A stretch of DNA of 64,000 nt, taken from the IMG/VR virus record IMGVR_UViG_2565956771_000001, positions 24 to 64,023 of that record; one strand, written 5' to 3'. The stretch's first letter is position 1. The number at the start of each line of letters is the position of its first letter. The position numbers and the translations under genes are program-made. This DNA is from a virus. Below the pieces are notes generated by a model. That model was not told the origin of the DNA, did no database searches, and saw only the letters and a program-made list of their open reading frames with translations. Positions 1 to 9,330 of this stretch are shown here, one piece after another.

Positions 1-593
1 ACGGGGCGGACACGGAGCTCGTCGTACTTGCCGTAGTCGTACTGAATGCCATCATCGAAGAGCATGACGAATGCGTAGTAGGCTGAGCGCTGCGAACTCG
101 ACCAGTAGTAACAGTCTTTGGCGAACACCTCAGGGCAGTTCAGCCAGCCCTGATACAGCTCGGCCGCGGCTGGCAGGTAGAAGTCATGGTGACCATCAGC
201 CTTGTACTCGGCGCAGGCATCGGCAGCCGGATACTTCCGTTCGTCATCGTTGCCGATCAACACCTGGGTATTGGTGTAGCCGTCAGTCTTGCTCAGGCCT
301 TTCACCTCAACTCCACGCCCGCCCCACTCATGGGCCCCAACGTCATTGGCGGCGATGATCAGGTAATGCGCAGGCACTTCACCGCGGGCTTGAACGTACC
401 CGCCGTTGAGACCGCCCTGGCCCGGCCATGGCTGGCCGATTTGCGGGGTGTCGGAGTGCGCAACCGGCTGAACGTTCGCCGCCGGCGGCAGCACTTGGGC
501 GAACACGCTGGCCATGGCCAGTTTTGCCAGGGAGGAAGCGGGCATCTTGATAGACGCGTCACCGTGCTTCAGGGTGATCATTTCGGTTTTCAT
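1..593 (-). CDS. DUF1566/Lcl-C (C-type lectin fold) protein, 3' end off the window; probable DGR target
   Basis: Translated by hand (absent from the ORF track because it has no stop in the window): RBS GAGG, ATG at 593, MKTEMITLKHG...PQIGQPWPGQGGLNGG...FYLPAAAELY...YYWSSSQRSAYYAFVMLFDDGIQYDYGKYDELRVRPV. Confidence 0.8.
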   Translation of the reverse strand, partial: MKTEMITLKHGDASIKMPASSLAKLAMASVFAQVLPPAANVQPVAHSDTPQIGQPWPGQGGLNGGYVQARGEVPAHYLIIAANDVGAHEWGGRGVEVKGLSKTDGYTNTQVLIGNDDERKYPAADACAEYKADGHHDFYLPAAAELYQGWLNCPEVFAKDCYYWSSSQRSAYYAFVMLFDDGIQYDYGKYDELRVRP

Positions 594-650: not shown

Positions 651-1016
651 TTACGCTGGTGTTTCGATTTCGTCGTCAGGCTCGGGTGGGTCGTCGGCGA
701 GCGACTTCAGGCCCGCCGCCTTGATGATCTGCGACACCTTTTCAGTTACTAAAAAAGGTGTCGTGACACACTTGAGCATCTGCGCCGCAGTTTCGAAGTC
801 GGCGGCGATTACGTTGCGCAGCAGGGTCTGGTGTACCTCCTGCTGATTGTTGAAGCCGTGCTGCTTCATCAGGCGTTTGAGGTCGGCCTTGAAGATGCCG
901 GCCACCTCAATCGTAAATTTCTCGACGCCCAATGCAGCATCCTTCGCTGCCGCTTTCTCGCGCTTGCGGCGTTGCTTCAAGGCTTCCGCCGTCGGCTGCT
1001 GCTCTTCCTCGGCCAT
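651..1016 (-). CDS. Phage hypothetical protein (early-left operon)
   Basis: 121-aa ORF, co-oriented with its neighbours, charged helical N-terminus. Confidence 0.7.
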   Translation of the reverse strand: MAEEEQQPTAEALKQRRKREKAAAKDAALGVEKFTIEVAGIFKADLKRLMKQHGFNNQQEVHQTLLRNVIAADFETAAQMLKCVTTPFLVTEKVSQIIKAAGLKSLADDPPEPDDEIETPA

Positions 1017-1097
1017 TGCTTGATTCCTCTATTCCACTTGCCGGCAACGCCAGCCAGGTCGGTCTGCGCCGCGCGGCGGCTATCTTGCAGATGCGTC

Positions 1098-1412
1098 TCA
1101 TGGGGTGTCGGCGAACTTGAAGCCGTTCTCTTGGGCGATCAGCGTCACGCGCTTGATGTGCATGCCCAGGTTCTTTGCTGCAACGCTGGCCACGACGCCC
1201 TTAGCTGCTTCGGCGCGTACGGCCGGTGCAAGCTTGTCGCGTTCTTTGCGCAGGCGTTCGTGGTGCGCCGTGGTGCCGTTGTAGGGACCGTCAACACCAA
1301 CGCCGTTCGGGATGATCTGGGCTTTCTTGCCTGAACCGAAGAAGGCGTCCAACTGCTGGTTCAGGTTGTCGATAATCGAGTGCCTTGGATCCGGCATTGG
1401 CTCGCCGATCAT
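1098..1412 (-). CDS. Phage hypothetical protein, possible C-terminal HTH
   Basis: 104-aa ORF overlapping the upstream gene by 4 nt; C-terminus VAAKNLGMHIKRVTLIAQENGF looks HTH-like. Confidence 0.7.
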   Translation of the reverse strand: MIGEPMPDPRHSIIDNLNQQLDAFFGSGKKAQIIPNGVGVDGPYNGTTAHHERLRKERDKLAPAVRAEAAKGVVASVAAKNLGMHIKRVTLIAQENGFKFADTP

Positions 1413-1690
1413 TTCGCACCGCCTGACAGCGTCACCTTCACGCCGTCTGCACGCGCTTCAAGAGCCTGGGCAAAGTTGCTTGCCTCCTTCCACGTCCAGC
1501 GGAAGCCCTTCACCTTGTCGGTGGCGAGCTCCACGATGTGGTAAGCGTTGCCGACATTGCGGATTTGGAATCGAACTTTCTGCGCCGGCGGCTCTTTGCC
1601 GATAATGGCGTAGAGCTCGGCGGTGGCCAGGCGAGAGCGCATGTGCAGGGCCGCAACCCCGTCTACGCGCTGTTGAATTGATGCGTGCAT
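1409..1690 (-). CDS. Phage hypothetical protein
   Basis: 93 aa, RBS GAGGT upstream, coupled to the next ORF. Confidence 0.7.
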   Translation of the reverse strand: MHASIQQRVDGVAALHMRSRLATAELYAIIGKEPPAQKVRFQIRNVGNAYHIVELATDKVKGFRWTWKEASNFAQALEARADGVKVTLSGGAK

Positions 1691-1791
1691 GGTGGATACC
1701 TCAGTGGGTTGCGTTTATTCGTCAGCACCCTGACCGCCTGGTATGTGCCGGTGGGCCCAGGGGAGGGTGCTGACGGGTAAAGGCGAGGCGT

Positions 1792-1819
1792 AAAAAAGCC
1801 CAGTCGAAACCGGGCTTTC
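1792..1819 (-). terminator. Intrinsic terminator in the early-left operon
   Basis: Minus strand reads AAAGCCCGGTTTCGACTGGGCTTTTTTA (hairpin plus U-tract). Confidence 0.7.
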
Positions 1820-2161
1820 AGTGCGATTCGTAGACCTCCCTACGTCACGCGGTAGACGCTGTGGCGTCTAGGGTTCGTTGTGGTTCACATGGCTGCCAAT
1901 CCTCCCTCTGTTCGCTCACTGGGTTGGCAGTGGCTACCGTTCTCTAGGCTTGTTGGATGCAGGTGGCCGGCGCGTGCCGGATGTTCGTCCGCATCGGGGT
2001 GTGATCTGTCGTCCGGTCTGGGCTGCCCGGATTACTGGCTTTCGCCTCCCATATTCCTCCGCTCCGGCTTCCCATTGCTGGGCCCACCCATTGCGGGGCA
2101 AACACATCACACTCCGATGCGGCCTGGTGCTGAGGAGTACCAGGTGCTCGGGCAGTTTGCG

Positions 2162-2467
2162 TCAGGCTGACGTCGCGCTGGTTGTTCCTGCTGCGAGCTT
2201 CAGTGCCTTCTTCAGCGCACGCTCGAAGCTCTCGAAGTAATAGGTCTTATCCGGCTTGAAAACGCTGCCGATGATGATCATGGTGGCCGCCGGGTCGTCT
2301 GGCCCCCGGCCCCCTACGAAAGCACGCGGGCGGGTATCGACCAGCAAGATCCCACCCTTGGGCATTTTCTCGGCGAAGCCCAGTACGGATACGCCTGCTG
2401 CTTTACAAACCTCCTGCCGCTCAGGCTTTAGAGCAAGGAGGCCATCCTTTCGTGTGAAGAGGTTCAT
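2162..2467 (-). CDS. Phage hypothetical protein
   Basis: ATG at 2467 (MNLFTRK) with GAGGA RBS; the ORF track start at 2497 is probably too far upstream. Confidence 0.65.
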   Translation of the reverse strand: MNLFTRKDGLLALKPERQEVCKAAGVSVLGFAEKMPKGGILLVDTRPRAFVGGRGPDDPAATMIIIGSVFKPDKTYYFESFERALKKALKLAAGTTSATSA

Positions 2468-2524
2468 GGTTTGTCCTCGGTTGTCATCCCGCTGCACCCT
2501 GTCGCCAAGGTGCAGCAGTGATGC

Positions 2525-2686
2525 TTATTCAGCCTTGAGCGCTTCGATTGCCTTGCGGTAGTCGGCAGCGTTGGATCGGTTGGTAGCGGCACTTTCGTGT
2601 TCGCCTTCGCGCTCCTGGATGGCTGCGTTGTTTTCGCAGTTGGATGCGTGGATTTCGAGCTGGGAGATTGCTGTTGCGTGCTTCAT
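2525..2686 (-). CDS. Small phage protein (53 aa)
   Basis: Hand translation MKHATAISQLEIHASNCENNAAIQEREGEHESAATNRSNAADYRKAIEALKAE; GAGG RBS; below the ORF-track length cutoff. Confidence 0.6.
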   Translation of the reverse strand: MKHATAISQLEIHASNCENNAAIQEREGEHESAATNRSNAADYRKAIEALKAE

Positions 2687-2709
2687 GGTGGGTGCCTCTG
2701 GTGGATGAA

Positions 2710-3093
2710 TTATGCGAGCAACACGGGTTGTTCGGCCCGGCGCACCATCCGCACCTGGGCCGTACGGCGTTCCGGTACTCGGCGATCACGACGCATTGAG
2801 TCGTCACCGATCATTGCGTGCATGGCGATCAGGCTGGCCAGGACGAAGCACATCGGCGAGATGATCTGCCGGCGCATGGCTTCGGCGACCGCCGCTGTCT
2901 GGCGGGTCACGCCAAGCTTGAACATGGCGCAGGAAAGACGCTTGGCCACGGTGCAGGCCGCCACGTCGAACTGGCGGGCAATCTCTTTCGCTGTCTTGCC
3001 CTGGGCGGTGCCCAGCAGGTACTGAACTTCCTTTGGCGCAAGGCCGCGTCCGAGATGACCCTTCCATGCGCCGCTGACGATTGTTGCTTCCAT
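2710..3093 (-). CDS. LuxR-type HTH transcriptional regulator (first gene after PL)
   Basis: LAPKEVQYLLGTAQGKTAKEIARQFDVAACTVAKRLSCAMFKLGV is a LuxR C-terminal HTH; start at ATG 3093 with GGGAG RBS. Confidence 0.85.
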   Translation of the reverse strand: MEATIVSGAWKGHLGRGLAPKEVQYLLGTAQGKTAKEIARQFDVAACTVAKRLSCAMFKLGVTRQTAAVAEAMRRQIISPMCFVLASLIAMHAMIGDDSMRRDRRVPERRTAQVRMVRRAEQPVLLA

Positions 3094-3283
3094 CAATGTG
3101 ACTCCCGGTTGGTTTCCCGTCTGGCCCTGTTGCCAAGGCCAGCCAGTGAAATCTTCCGTTCTGTTTAAAGAGCTTGATCCAGTCGGTCCCGCTTTCCGGG
3201 GCTGGGAGATCACTTCGCTGATCCCGTGCTATCTGGCGGCTTCACCAGTCGTGTATTGCCGAGTGCTGCTCGGCGATGGAGTG

Positions 3284-3312
3284 AATTTAGAAAACTAAAC
3301 AGAATTCGTCAA
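3284..3312 (-). promoter_or_regulatory. PL early-left promoter
   Basis: Minus strand TTGACG-17 bp-TAAATT, overlapped by an operator palindrome. Confidence 0.75.
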
Positions 3313-3774: not shown

Positions 3775-3806
3775 TAAAAAAGCCCGCTGGTGGCGGGCTT
3801 TTTGTT
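3775..3806. terminator. Bidirectional terminator between the convergent DUF1654 and cI genes
   Basis: AAAAAAGCCCGC-TGGTG-GCGGGCTTTTT. Confidence 0.85.
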
Positions 3807-4632
3807 AAGCCTTACGGGCATTCCAGATCAACAGCACCTTGGCGTGGATCGTCACGTCGTCAATTCGAGCCGTTTGGTTTTCATAGTGTTTGTTGTCCGA
3901 TATCAGCCTGTAGCACTCTTCATCCAGGCGCATTACGCGCTTGATGTACAGTTCTCCATGCCAAGTGAGAACGTATATCCCCTCACCGATGAAATCCTTT
4001 ACACCCTTGTCGACTATCACCAGGTCTTTGTCGTTGATCGTCCCGGCCATGCTCTCGCCCCAGCCGTTGATCATGCCAAGCGATGACGCGGAGGTATAAG
4101 TGACCCCTTTCTCTCGGAGAATTTCCTCACGCACCACGAGATTTCGAACGACCTCGGTATAGTCTGGTGGCACCTGTCCGTGCCCCATGGCGGCTCGGAT
4201 ATCGTATTGAGGAATGACAATTTCCTCATTCGTTGGTCGAAGGCCAGCTAGATGACTAGGGACGTAACTCCCGCCTTGCTCGACTGGGCTATCTGCTTGC
4301 TCCGCTGCAGCGAGCATCGTCTCCCGAGCTTTTTCTGAAAGATTCTTTCCAGCCCTGGACGCAAGCATTTTAGCCATCAACTCAACCGTGGACATGCCGG
4401 CCTTGGTGTCATCGGCAAATGACTGATCCGGTGTACCGACACCGTCGGACAACCAGTCCGGCGAGCAATCCAAAGCCTTCGCCAGCGCCAAAAGGTTTTT
4501 GCCCTTCGCGCCATTCGTTCCGCTCACCCAGAAACTGACCGTCGCCTTCGATACGCCAGTCAGTTTGCTGATGTCGGTGGCGCTGAGATTGAGCGCCTTC
4601 ATGCGTGAGGTCACGCGGTCTTTAAAGTCCAT
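3805..4632 (-). CDS. cI: CI-like repressor (HTH plus S24 peptidase)
   Basis: N-terminal XRE HTH (LSATDISKLTGVSKATVSFWVSG); S24 motifs GWGESM and YIKRV; divergent from cro; start probably ATG 4632. Confidence 0.93.
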   Translation of the reverse strand: MDFKDRVTSRMKALNLSATDISKLTGVSKATVSFWVSGTNGAKGKNLLALAKALDCSPDWLSDGVGTPDQSFADDTKAGMSTVELMAKMLASRAGKNLSEKARETMLAAAEQADSPVEQGGSYVPSHLAGLRPTNEEIVIPQYDIRAAMGHGQVPPDYTEVVRNLVVREEILREKGVTYTSASSLGMINGWGESMAGTINDKDLVIVDKGVKDFIGEGIYVLTWHGELYIKRVMRLDEECYRLISDNKHYENQTARIDDVTIHAKVLLIWNARKA

Positions 4633-4696
4633 ATTTAGGATTCTAAACATTTCATTGTTTAGATAACTTGCCTTGTGTTGTTAAGAACTCTAAACT
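4633..4696. promoter_or_regulatory. OR operators (3 sites) with PR and PRM
   Basis: Sites at 4633-4648, 4657-4672 and 4680-4695 match GTTTAG-N4-CTAAAC; PR = TTGCCT(4668)-17 bp-TAAACT(4691); minus-strand TAGAAT lies 7 nt before the cI ATG. Confidence 0.78.
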
Positions 4697-4722
4697 CGGC
4701 AGAGACAACGGAGACGCACCCC

Positions 4723-4929
4723 ATGACCTTTGACGAAGCCCTGAAATATTTCCGCACCGGTCGCGCCATCGGTGACGCGCTCCGCGTTAGCGGTAGCCGT
4801 GTCTCCCAGTGCCGTGCGGCAGGTGGATTTTCGTACCCAATGCAGTGCGTTCTTGAAAAGGAGTCCGACGGTGCATTGGTTGCCAAGCGAGACGATGACC
4901 CAGCGCAGCCAATGAAACAGTCCGCTTAA
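4723..4929 (+). CDS. cro: Cro-like regulator
   Basis: MTFDEALKYFRTGRAIGDALRVSGSRVSQCR is a Cro/CII-type HTH; first gene after PR. Confidence 0.85.
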   Translation: MTFDEALKYFRTGRAIGDALRVSGSRVSQCRAAGGFSYPMQCVLEKESDGALVAKRDDDPAQPMKQSA

Positions 4930-8053: not shown

Positions 8054-9330
8054 CCCAGACAATGCTCACTTCGTTTACCGATGCGGAGATCCGTCGCCAG
8101 GCCAGCAACAGCGCAGTGCGTGACCTGCGCGACGCTCGGTACCCGGGCGTGTACTTCCGTTTCCATCAAAACCGCGAGCGCGGTACCTGGTACCTGGTGT
8201 CGGGTGGCAAGTGGGACAAGATCGCCGCGTTTCCTCAACTGCCGGTGAAGGGGTTGATCGTCGCGTTGCCGAAGATCCGCGAGCGTCTGGCCGCTGATCC
8301 AAAGGCCTCGGCCGCCGCTGGAACCTTGCAGACTGTCGGCGAGCTGCTCGACTGGTTCACCGCCCGCCAGGCCGTGGACCGGAGTCTTTCAGCCAAGCGC
8401 CGTTCTACCAATACCTCGATCATCTCGTGCCACCTGAAGCCACGACTTGGCACCCTGGTGGTGGAGGATGTTGACCGGTCAACGCTCGACAAGCTGGTCA
8501 TGTGGCCCATGCAGGCCGAAATGTCGCTGTCCTACGTCCGCCTGATGTGGGGCGTGCTGGTCGTCGCCTTCCGTCAGGCCGAGAAGCTGCGCCTGATCAC
8601 CACCAACCCCATCGCCGGGTTCAAGTTCACCGACTTCACCAAGGCCCGCATCCAGCCGAAGCCTTCTCGCTTGCGTGCGGTGCAGCTCGAGGAAGTGATC
8701 GGTCAACTGGCTGCCGGGTTTGATCAGCACCCGCAGGACTGCATGCTGGCCCTGATGATGCTGTGCCACGGGACGCGTGCCGGTGAGACCAGGCAGGCGC
8801 AGTGGTCCCATTTGACCCTGGGTGAGCAGGGCGAATGGTTCATTCCGACCGAGAACACCAAGACCCGCTGCGAGCATCACTTGCCATTGACCCATCAGGT
8901 GTGTGCGCTGCTGGAGCGGTACCGGGACTGGCAGTCGGGCAAAGGCTACAAGGGCACCTACCTATTCCCTGCCCGTGTCCGTGGCCCGATGAGTGACAGC
9001 CAGGCCTGTGCCGTGTTCACGCGCCTGGGCAAGGGTGAGTGGACCAGCCACGACCTGCGCAAGGTTGCACGCACTGGCTGGACCGACCTGGGTGTCGACT
9101 TCCTGATCGGCGAGATGCTGGTGAACCACACCATGACCCGCAACGTGCAGACATACATCCATACCTCGGCGGAACTGCTCAAGCGCGAGGCGCTGAACAA
9201 GTGGCATGACTGGTTAGACGGGAAGGGTTTCAACCTGATTCACCGCTCGACCATGACTAGAAACGGAAATTCGCACAATGACGCCGAGGCCTTGAATGGC
9301 GCGGCCTCTAGCCAAATTCAGAAACCATAA
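8050..9330 (+). CDS. Tyrosine recombinase/integrase in the nin-like region
   Basis: Arm-binding N-terminus (DLRDARYPGVYFR); catalytic set GTRAGE, HDLRKVAR, VNHT, TYIH intact. Confidence 0.88.
   Translation: MTQTMLTSFTDAEIRRQASNSAVRDLRDARYPGVYFRFHQNRERGTWYLVSGGKWDKIAAFPQLPVKGLIVALPKIRERLAADPKASAAAGTLQTVGELLDWFTARQAVDRSLSAKRRSTNTSIISCHLKPRLGTLVVEDVDRSTLDKLVMWPMQAEMSLSYVRLMWGVLVVAFRQAEKLRLITTNPIAGFKFTDFTKARIQPKPSRLRAVQLEEVIGQLAAGFDQHPQDCMLALMMLCHGTRAGETRQAQWSHLTLGEQGEWFIPTENTKTRCEHHLPLTHQVCALLERYRDWQSGKGYKGTYLFPARVRGPMSDSQACAVFTRLGKGEWTSHDLRKVARTGWTDLGVDFLIGEMLVNHTMTRNVQTYIHTSAELLKREALNKWHDWLDGKGFNLIHRSTMTRNGNSHNDAEALNGAASSQIQKP

What the first reader, a model, noticed from the sequence alone, without database searches (positions are those of the whole stretch)
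1..113. DGR variable-repeat signature at the C-terminus of an early, non-structural phage gene
Seen: the ORF ends YYWSSSQRSAYYAFVMLFDDGIQYDYGKYDELRVRPV. Between fixed codons, the variable-looking positions are almost all NNC/NNT (TAC TAC, GTC, CTC, GAT, ATT, TAC GAC TAC, TAC GAC), as expected from adenine mutagenesis of AAC/AAT template codons. Established: the WSS...RxVR C-type-lectin ending is the classic target of diversity-generating retroelements. No matching template repeat was spotted in the window. Inference: avd, TR and RT lie just left of position 1. The target sits in the PL operon rather than the tail, implying diversification of an intracellular binding protein (for example anti-defence or host takeover).
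Basis: partly seen in the sequence, partly recalled or inferred. Interest (0 to 1): 0.8.

Follow-up and report, generated by a model that had tools for sequence, protein, structure and literature searches.

The report
DGR variable repeat in prophage gene
The end of this early Pseudomonas prophage gene really is a hypervariable stretch written by a diversity-generating retroelement, but this element family is already catalogued and the reverse transcriptase lies beyond the end of the assembled contig.

Summary
Confirmed. A 203-aa minus-strand gene (window 593 to 19 nt left of the window) ends in a true DGR variable repeat (VR, window 1-95).

- **Window VR against template repeats (TR):** against the TR of related Pseudomonas prophages, all 13 mismatches fall on TR adenines (33 A of 104 nt, P = 5e-8).
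- **Homologues:** among 120 homologues the scaffold is almost invariant. Ten codons show the AAC-mutagenesis residue set and three show only D/G/V/A.
- **Public metagenomes:** contigs are identical outside the VR and differ at TR-adenine sites.
- **Relatives:** most carry target1-target2-bAvd-RT-15 RNA-TR-RT directly downstream (26 of 33 informative IMG/VR loci; 23 of 25 full-length matches in 400 Pseudomonas genomes). Eight have lost the RT by deletion.
- **This record:** it ends 4 nt after the stop codon and holds no RT, Avd or TR. Its own cassette is unseen; I put its presence at about 0.7.
- **Fold:** a confident model (pLDDT 93.8) is C-type-lectin-like and closest to the Legionella Lcl C-terminal domain.
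- **Context:** the gene sits in the leftward early operon and shows no obvious export signal. An intracellular ligand is plausible but untested.

This is a new member of a known kind. P. fluorescens WH6 was listed with a two-VR DGR in 2012.

The parts
1..593 (-). Target gene T1: 203-aa DUF1566/Lcl_C-type C-type-lectin-like protein. The start ATG is at 593-591. The last 6 codons and the TGA stop lie in the 19 nt left of the window (contig 5-23).
   Evidence: ORF list and contig end. 852 homologues, many carrying PF07603. AF2 model pLDDT 93.8 and Foldseek top hit 8q4e Lcl C-terminal domain, E = 3.6e-6.
1..95 (-). Variable repeat (VR). It corresponds to TR coordinates 10-113 of relatives and extends 8 nt left of the window. 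The 13 positions mutated relative to the TR are window 23, 26, 31, 35, 38, 41, 46, 61, 62, 67, 68, 77 and 80.
   Evidence: 13/13 mismatches on TR adenines, P = 4.7e-8. Homologue entropy profile. 18 of 19 listed variable places in metagenome contigs map to TR adenines.
1..21 (-). Invariant G+C-rich 3' end of the VR (GAGCTCCGTGTCCGCCCCGTCCGCAGATT), an IMH-like element. It is identical to the 3' end of the relatives' TR, and homology to the TR stops just after it.
   Evidence: Alignment A1 and TR/VR table. The exact 43-mer of this element plus the 3' flank occurs only in three RT-bearing IMG/VR contigs.
96..428 (-). Non-variable scaffold of the C-type-lectin-like domain (about residues 56-166).
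   Evidence: Low entropy among 120 homologues. Confident AF2 model.
489..593 (-). Conserved N-terminal module (residues 1-35): a beta-hairpin plus an Ala-rich helix, followed by a variable linker. It is shared with paralogue T3 and absent from T2.
   Evidence: AF2 secondary structure, pLDDT 90-96 for residues 1-30. Sequences of T1/T2/T3.
651..3213 (-). Upstream genes of the same leftward operon: 2710-3213 (GerE/LuxR-type regulator), 2162-2497, 1409-1690, 1098-1412 and 651-1016 (small proteins with no family).
   Evidence: ORFs and Pfam. Same gene order as RT-bearing loci L068-L071. No minus-strand terminator-like site.
3284..3312 (-). Sigma-70-like promoter match upstream of the GerE gene, a candidate leftward early promoter.
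   Evidence: Consensus scan only, 9 of 12 matches. This is not evidence of function.
3805..4650 (-). CI-type repressor (HTH_3 + Peptidase_S24), divergent from a cro-like gene at 4675-4929 (+). It fixes the immunity region and therefore the 'early left' position of the target.
   Evidence: Pfam E = 4.9e-20 and 1.4e-11.

Best explanation
Window 1-95 (minus strand) is a genuine DGR variable repeat. It forms the last ~35 codons of a 203-aa C-type-lectin-like protein (T1) of a lambdoid Pseudomonas prophage.

Mechanism in relatives. The cassette there is T1 - T2 (a second target) - bAvd - RT-15 structured RNA - TR - RT. The expected mechanism is this: the TR is transcribed, the RT/Avd complex copies it into cDNA with random nucleotides opposite TR adenines, and the cDNA replaces the VR. 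The G+C-rich 3' element guides this replacement. That recodes ten AAC/AAT codons and three GAC/GAT codons on one beta-hairpin face of the lectin fold and leaves the scaffold untouched.

Shown: the adenine-specific TR/VR pattern, VR-only variation between otherwise identical genes, and the cassette in relatives. Inferred: the biochemical steps, by analogy with Bordetella phage BPP-1, and the presence of the window phage's own T2-avd-TR-RT. That part would lie just beyond the contig end, and I rate its presence at about 0.7.

The gene is part of the leftward early operon and has no recognisable export signal. The diversified ligand-binding surface therefore most likely acts inside the infected cell. 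This is inferred and untested.
For: (1) 13/13 window-VR mismatches fall on TR adenines of L006/L024/L025, P = 4.7e-8.
(2) In 20 cognate TR-VR pairs the mismatches are A 292/641, C 4/709, G 2/415 and T 29/315. The T mismatches lie mostly at the VR2 3' boundary.
(3) Across 120 homologues, positions 172, 173, 176, 178, 183, 185-187, 190 and 191 have about 2.3-3.3 bits of entropy. Positions 180, 181 and 188 are only D/G/V/A. The flanking residues are invariant.
(4) Two prophage copies in one genome (L024/L025) have 0/498 scaffold differences and 16 VR differences. L054 against L059 shows the same pattern with 13.
(5) Metagenome contigs are identical to the window gene outside the VR and differ at TR-adenine places.
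(6) The relatives' cassette: Pfam bAvd 44.6 bits (cutoff 40) and RVT_1 E = 5e-17 with IGNLSSQ and YVDD motifs. The best PDB match of the RT is 8ub7, E = 4.5e-35. Rfam RT-15 scores 174-179 bits and abuts the TR.
(7) 26 of 33 informative IMG/VR loci have an intact cassette. 23 of 25 full-length matches in 400 Pseudomonas genomes lie within about 2.5 kb upstream of the RT.
(8) The window's VR non-adenine positions and 3' flank are identical (0/85) to the RT-bearing L029/L045/L068. The upstream synteny matches the RT-bearing L068.
(9) The fold is C-type-lectin-like.
Against: - The 82.6-kb record holds no RT (PF00078: no candidate), no Avd, no TR and no second target. The DGR of this particular phage is therefore not observed.
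- The closest scaffold relative (L002/L003/L004, 19/498 differences) is an orphan whose T2-avd-TR-RT was deleted.
- The TR used for the 13/13 test is heterologous.
- Cytoplasmic location rests only on the absence of obvious signals, judged by eye and by a hydropathy scan.
Confidence: 0.88

Rival explanations
1. Orphan (fossil) VR. The window phage once had the DGR but lost T2-avd-TR-RT by deletion, as in L002-L004. The VR is then frozen, or is rewritten only in trans by a co-resident prophage's DGR.
For: - The closest scaffold relative is the RT-less L002 type (19/498 differences).
- 7 of 33 informative IMG/VR loci carry independent RT deletions.
- No cassette part is in the 82.6-kb record.
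- L032 and L037 share one RT deletion yet differ at 20 TR-adenine sites in VR1. Trans action or recombination is therefore possible.
Against: - The next-closest relative, L067 (27/498), has a complete cassette.
- The window VR has zero non-adenine changes and an intact G+C-rich 3' element. Orphans L002 and L037 each carry a substitution at the same G of that element.
- The 3' flank is identical to RT-bearing loci, and the exact 43-mer was found only in those.
- The record lacks the terminal integrase expected downstream, so it is simply truncated.
- A contig break right at the VR is what a multi-copy VR1/VR2/TR repeat would cause. L040, L044 and G278 break there too.
Confidence: 0.28
2. Not a DGR product: an ordinary DUF1566 protein whose C-terminal loop varies through conventional mutation and diversifying selection. 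The NNC codons would then reflect only the high G+C codon bias.
For: The genome is G+C-rich, so NNC codons are common anyway. The window protein's own Pfam Lcl_C score is below threshold.
Against: - The variation is confined to TR-adenine positions (13/13; 18 of 19 variable places in metagenome contigs).
- Three positions show only D/G/V/A, the outcome of changing the middle A of GAC/GAT.
- Identical scaffolds carry 13-16 VR changes.
- A TR with A at exactly these sites, plus Avd and RT, sits beside the homologues.
Confidence: 0.01
3. The reading differs in function only. T1/T2 would be virion-associated or otherwise extracellular receptor-binding proteins like Mtd of BPP-1, diversified to switch host receptor, rather than intracellular binders.
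For: Characterised phage DGR targets are tail-fibre or receptor-binding proteins. The conserved N-terminal beta-hairpin/helix module could be a docking module. The Lcl C-terminal domain and the Legionella DGR target are surface proteins (PMC5758913).
Against: - The genes lie in the leftward early operon between the immunity region and int. They are on the strand opposite to that expected for late genes and sit next to regulators and recombination or replication genes.
- There is no signal peptide, lipobox or clear TM segment.
- There is no tail-fibre domain.
Confidence: 0.2

Closest known systems
Bordetella phage BPP-1 DGR (mtd-avd-TR-brt)
   Same: - The accessory Avd is a four-helix-bundle type (Pfam bAvd).
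- The RT's best solved relative is the 328-aa RT of 8ub7. From memory this is the Bordetella bRT, and I have not verified that.
- The TR lies next to the RT.
- The VR occupies the last ~35 codons of a C-type-lectin-fold target.
- Mutagenesis is adenine-specific and acts on AAC codons.
- A G+C-rich 3' element sits at the VR end, and a hairpin lies downstream of VR1 in relatives.
   Different: - There are two adjacent targets, and sometimes a third 2-5 kb upstream, instead of one.
- The targets are small (about 200 aa) DUF1566-type proteins in the early-left operon, not a tail-fibre protein next to the tail genes.
- A 192-nt Rfam RT-15 RNA precedes the TR.
- The TR 3' end overlaps or abuts the RT reading frame.
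Legionella pneumophila DGR target LdtA and the CLec2/DUF1566 target class (category 'd' of Wu et al. 2018, PMC5758913)
   Same: The VR class is the same (YWSS..QRSA...ELRVRPVR; weak DUF1566/Lcl_C hits). The nearest solved fold is the Legionella Lcl C-terminal domain.
   Different: LdtA is an exported surface lipoprotein on a chromosomal island. T1 has no lipobox or signal peptide and is encoded by a prophage early operon.
Pseudomonas fluorescens WH6 DGR with two VRs (DiGReF table 2, PMC3521204) and the many Pseudomonas DGRs counted in surveys (PMC6642488; bioRxiv 10.1101/2020.04.01.020958)
   Same: The genus matches, and the two-target architecture matches T1/T2 here.
   Different: Those surveys list the elements without describing their position in the prophage early operon, their decay to orphan VRs or their function. 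I did not fetch WH6 itself, so identity of family is inferred.
Pseudomonas phage Cruim01 (PP179333.1), with Aurca01 and Medea1
   Same: These cultured P. syringae phages carry the same T1-T2-avd-RT-15-RT block, and T1 is 52-57% identical.
   Different: In the record the targets and avd are 'hypothetical protein' and the RT is 'retron-type'. No DGR is annotated. The neighbouring early genes differ.
Cyanobacterial DGRs that diversify intracellular signalling proteins (PMC7517822)
   Same: They are a precedent for DGR targets that act inside the cell (abstract seen).
   Different: They are cellular rather than phage elements, and their targets are multi-domain regulatory proteins.

Membership tests
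Diversity-generating retroelement (target/VR) | The VR differs from a TR almost only at TR adenines. | tested here: met
   Window VR against the TR of L006/L024/L025: 13 of 13 mismatches at A, P = 4.7e-8. The TR is heterologous. Cognate pairs in relatives: A 292/641 against C 4/709 and G 2/415.
Diversity-generating retroelement (target/VR) | A TR copy is present in the same element or genome. | tested here: inconclusive
   There is none in the 82,665-bp record. However, the record ends 4 nt after the stop codon, and in relatives the TR lies about 1.3-1.4 kb further downstream.
Diversity-generating retroelement (target/VR) | A DGR-type reverse transcriptase ([I/L]GxxxSQ and YxDD motifs) is near the TR. 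| tested here: inconclusive
   PF00078 is absent from the record and tblastn with the relatives' RT finds nothing. The RT is present in 26 of 33 informative IMG/VR loci and beside 23 of 25 full-length genomic matches. The motifs IGNLSSQ and YVDD are in the L007 RT.
Diversity-generating retroelement (target/VR) | An accessory protein (Avd) is present. | tested here: inconclusive
   It is not in the record. In relatives, Pfam bAvd scores 44.6 bits (cutoff 40) and NCBIfam DivGenRetAVD gives E = 1e-13, below its cutoff.
Diversity-generating retroelement (target/VR) | The VR sits at the C-terminus of a C-type-lectin fold, with variable residues on one surface. | tested here: met
   AF2 pLDDT 93.8. 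The variable residues 172-191 lie on the beta-hairpin 173-178/183-188 and its loops. Foldseek gives 8q4e Lcl_C at E = 3.6e-6, followed by many C-type lectin-like domains at weak E-values (0.08-0.9).
Diversity-generating retroelement (target/VR) | A conserved G+C-rich 3' element (IMH-like) lies at the VR end, where TR and VR homology stops. | tested here: met
   GAGCTCCGTGTCCGCCCCGTCCGCAGATT is identical in the window VR and in the TRs, and the sequences diverge right after it. Its function as an IMH was not tested.
Diversity-generating retroelement (target/VR) | Otherwise identical genes vary only in the VR, which indicates activity. | tested here: met
   L024 against L025: 0/498 scaffold and 16 VR differences. 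L054 against L059: 0/498 and 13. Logan contigs of three metagenomes show no listed difference from the window gene between contig 104 and 469 (X1: to 633) and differ at TR-A sites. These are contigs, not raw reads of the source sample.
Pfam PF07603 Lcl_C (DUF1566) | The HMM score is above the gathering threshold (34.9 bits). | tested here: not met
   The window protein scores 19.7 bits, E = 1.1e-3. The L007 paralogues score 27.5-30.2 bits. Many homologues carry a precomputed PF07603 hit. Fold similarity to the Lcl C-terminal domain is clear, so this is a divergent relative rather than a threshold-passing member.

The most novel reading that the evidence does not exclude
The DGR of these lambdoid Pseudomonas phages diversifies two or three small cytoplasmic lectin-fold proteins that are expressed from the early-left operon. 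They would act as a phage-encoded repertoire of 'adaptive' binders for variable intracellular host or competitor molecules, for example defence proteins or superinfecting phage components. The system would therefore not serve receptor switching. RT-less orphan copies could be kept up to date in trans by co-resident prophages.
Probability: 0.25. Interest if true: 0.75.

Novelty: new member of a known kind. Interest (0 to 1): 0.4.

Why it matters
- **Biology.** A widespread Pseudomonas prophage DGR was found in about 8% of 400 sampled species genomes. It places its targets in the early operon with no export signal. That differs from the textbook receptor-switching role and would be worth testing.
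- **Experimental system.** Cultured phages carry the same cassette (Cruim01, Aurca01, Medea1), and in the one record inspected (Cruim01) it is not annotated as a DGR.
- **Annotation and assembly.** The family also shows recurrent RT loss that leaves orphan VRs, and contigs that break at the VR. Both matter for DGR annotation and for metagenome assembly.

Tried and rejected
- **TR search in the record:** blastn with word size 7 found none.
- **Cassette parts in the record:** RVT_1 and tblastn with T1, T2, T3, Avd, RT and methylase found only T1 itself.
- **Exact-protein look-up of the window's T1:** not on record.
- **Search for a closer relative or the continuing contig:** Genome contigs, viral contigs and metagenome contigs gave nothing closer than 92%.
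- **Reads:** the raw-read run X21 laid no reads, so read-level VR heterogeneity in a single sample could not be measured. Logan contigs that run past the left end were reported, but their sequence is not shown.
- **Structure:** the first AF2 model, built from a shallow alignment of close homologues, was poor (pLDDT 57.7) and was discarded. A diverse 125-sequence alignment fixed this.
- **Literature:** a search for 'HbP1/8Q4E' returned only unrelated human HBP1 papers. Foldseek's title identified 8q4e as the Legionella Lcl C-terminal domain. No supplements of Wu et al. are held.
- **Assembly break or trimming:** I considered whether the record's end is a provirus-trimming boundary. It is 4 nt off the gene edge and the downstream integrase is missing, so an assembly break is more likely. 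This is not proven.
- **No complex prediction** was run, because no binding partner is claimed.

Full report
**1. What is at the coordinates**

The window is bases 24-64023 of an 82,665-bp IMG/VR virus record. On the minus strand an ORF starts at window 593. It runs off the left edge and stops at a TGA at contig 5-7. The product has 203 aa and ends ...YYWSSSQRSAYYAFVMLFDDGIQYDYGKYDELRVRPVRRLFI*. The record therefore ends 4 nt after the stop codon.

Pfam gives only a weak Lcl_C/DUF1566 hit (19.7 bits, cutoff 34.9).

**2. Is it a DGR variable repeat?**

A protein search found 852 homologues. Almost all have 203 aa and come from Pseudomonas genomes and metagenomes. In an alignment of the best 120:

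- The scaffold is nearly invariant.
- Residues 172, 173, 176, 178, 183, 185, 186, 187, 190 and 191 have 2.3-3.3 bits of entropy, with the residue set expected from AAC mutagenesis (N, Y, D, H, S, T, G and others).
- Residues 180, 181 and 188 are only D/G/V/A. That is what changing the middle A of GAC/GAT gives.
- The residues between them (W164, S166, R169, A171, F179, G182, R194, R196, P197, R199) never vary.

Five genomic loci with homologues of 57-74% identity all have an RVT_1 ORF about 1.6 kb downstream on the same strand. In L007 the order is:

- T1, 202 aa.
- T2, a second Lcl_C-like target.
- A 118-aa bAvd (Pfam 44.6 bits, above the cutoff of 40).
- A 105-108-bp repeat of the VR.
- A 386-aa RT.

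A third target lies about 4 kb upstream. The RT carries IGNLSSQ and YVDD motifs. Its best solved relative is the 328-aa RT of 8ub7 (E = 4.5e-35). Rfam's RT-15 RNA (RF03018, 174-179 bits) fills the gap between avd and the repeat, and its 3' end abuts the repeat.

The repeat is the TR. In 20 cognate TR-VR pairs the mismatches are A 292/641, C 4/709, G 2/415 and T 29/315. The T mismatches lie mostly at the 3' boundary of VR2.

TRs are 89-100% identical between prophages. Against the TR of L006/L024/L025 the window VR has 13 mismatches in 104 nt. All 13 are at the 33 adenines (P = 4.7e-8). The G+C-rich 3' segment is identical, and homology ends right after it.

**3. Evidence of activity**

- Two prophage copies in one 6.44-Mb genome (L024, L025) have identical T1 scaffolds (0/498) and 16 VR differences. 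L054 against L059 shows 0/498 and 13.
- Logan contigs of three metagenomes were laid on the record's first 900 bases. They show no listed difference from the window gene between contig 104 and 469 (for X1, up to 633) and many differences in contig 39-103. 18 of the 19 listed variable places map to TR adenines.
- Loose ends of those contigs reproduce the RT-15/TR 5' flank and the VR2 3' flank. Complete cassettes are therefore present in those samples.
- The only raw-read run laid nothing, so heterogeneity within one population could not be measured.

**4. Does this phage carry the cassette?**

This cannot be seen. The record has no RT, Avd, TR, T2 or T3. It also lacks the terminal integrase that follows the cassette in relatives, so it is truncated inside the prophage.

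Among 38 IMG/VR loci:

- 26 have the intact block.
- 7 have deletions: L032 and L037 keep TR nt 1-34 and RT aa 344-386. L056, L065 and L066 keep only the last 27-34 RT residues. L041 and L052 keep none.
- 5 are too short to tell. Two of those contigs also end in or at VR1.

In 400 Pseudomonas species genomes, 23 of 25 full-length T1 matches lie within about 2.5 kb upstream of the RT. One is split across contigs and one has no RT.

Evidence against an intact cassette:

- The window's closest scaffold relative (L002-L004, 19/498 differences) is an orphan. There T2 is cut after about 48 codons and avd-TR-RT are gone.

Evidence for an intact cassette:

- The next-closest relative, L067 (27/498), is intact.
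- The window's non-adenine VR positions and 3' flank are identical (0/85) to the RT-bearing L029/L045/L068. L002 and L067 each differ at 2.
- The exact 43-mer spanning the VR 3' end and its flank occurs only in three RT-bearing IMG/VR contigs.
- The upstream gene order and DNA match the RT-bearing L068-L071.
- The orphans L002 and L037 each carry a substitution at the same G of the G+C-rich element. The window does not.

I put an intact cassette at about 0.7.

**5. Fold and context**

A first AF2 model from close homologues was poor. A library-wide search gave 2,989 representatives at E <= 1e-3. A 125-sequence alignment then gave a model with pLDDT 93.8.

Foldseek's best PDB match is the Legionella Lcl C-terminal domain (8q4e, E = 3.6e-6). 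A Bacteroides fimbrial protein follows, then many C-type lectin-like domains at weak E-values (0.08-0.9). A profile search also hits 8q4e. The variable residues lie on the beta-hairpin 173-178/183-188 and the adjoining loops.

The gene follows a CI-type S24 repressor (3805-4650, divergent from cro), a GerE regulator and four small genes, all on the minus strand. A promoter-like site lies at 3312-3284. No minus-strand terminator-like site lies before the gene.

In relatives the same strand continues through T2, avd, TR and RT, often a C5 methylase, then small genes and int. T1 has no signal peptide, lipobox or clear TM segment (maximum 19-residue hydropathy 1.26). It has a conserved N-terminal beta-hairpin/helix module that T3 shares and T2 lacks. 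An intracellular role is plausible but untested.

**6. Comparison with what is known**

- DUF1566-type VRs are the CLec2 / category 'd' class of Wu et al., exemplified by the Legionella DGR (PMC5758913).
- DUF1566 is called the most common Pfam domain of DGR targets, and Pseudomonas is a DGR-rich genus (PMC6642488; bioRxiv 10.1101/2020.04.01.020958).
- P. fluorescens WH6 was listed with a two-VR DGR in 2012 (PMC3521204).
- The cultured P. syringae phage Cruim01 carries T1-T2-avd-RT-15-RT, annotated as hypothetical proteins and a 'retron-type' RT. Aurca01 and Medea1 carry T1 homologues.

**7. Verdict**

The item is a new member of a known, catalogued kind. Three points of modest interest remain:

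- The early-operon, signal-less targets.
- The recurrent decay of the cassette to orphan VRs.
- The possible rewriting of orphan VRs in trans.

The earlier notes of this scan concern other parts of the window and did not bear on this finding.

Noticed in passing
L007:11706-11896 and L068:7707-7898: Rfam RT-15 RNA (RF03018, 174-179 bits) lies between avd and the TR. Its 3' end runs into the first bases of the TR. This 'RT-associated' motif therefore appears to be the 5' part of the DGR template RNA in this family.
   Followed up: partly
L032 and L037 (IMG/VR), VR1 at about 8499-8603: Both loci share the same TR/RT deletion (TR nt 1-34 and RT aa 344-386 remain). Their T1 scaffolds differ at 1/498 positions, while VR1 differs at 21 sites, 20 of them TR adenines. 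This suggests rewriting in trans by another prophage's DGR, or recombination. The wider region is only 94% identical, so the question is unresolved.
   Followed up: partly
L002:10496-10603 and L037 VR1: Two independently RT-less loci carry a substitution at the same G of the G+C-rich 3' element (CCGTGTCC to CCGTATCC or CCGTTTCC). The element is otherwise invariant in all intact loci.
   Followed up: no
L040, L044 (IMG/VR contigs); G278 C21/C2; window contig start: Several assemblies break in or just after VR1, or between T1 and the RT. The VR1/VR2/TR repeat, VR heterogeneity or both seem to fragment short-read assemblies here.
   Followed up: partly
L098 (Pseudomonas phage Cruim01, PP179333.1: 33360-36447): This isolated phage carries the full T1-T2-avd-RT-15-RT block. 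The RT is annotated 'retron-type RNA-directed DNA polymerase' and the targets and avd are 'hypothetical'. No DGR is annotated.
   Followed up: partly
L007:13134-14057; L067:9146-10069: A C-5 cytosine DNA methylase gene directly follows the DGR RT in some relatives and is replaced by other genes in L068. Any functional link is unknown.
   Followed up: no
L007:10610-10690 and the equivalent in L002, L029, L067, L068: A conserved hairpin (GGCGC-loop-GCGCC followed by T6) lies about 45 nt downstream of VR1. It could be a terminator or the target-site hairpin known from BPP-1. It lies beyond the window contig's end.
   Followed up: no
contig 8694-9194 (window about 8671-9171), + strand: The only tyrosine-recombinase match in the 82.6-kb record lies in a 473-aa ORF inside the early-right region, not at a prophage end.
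   Followed up: no
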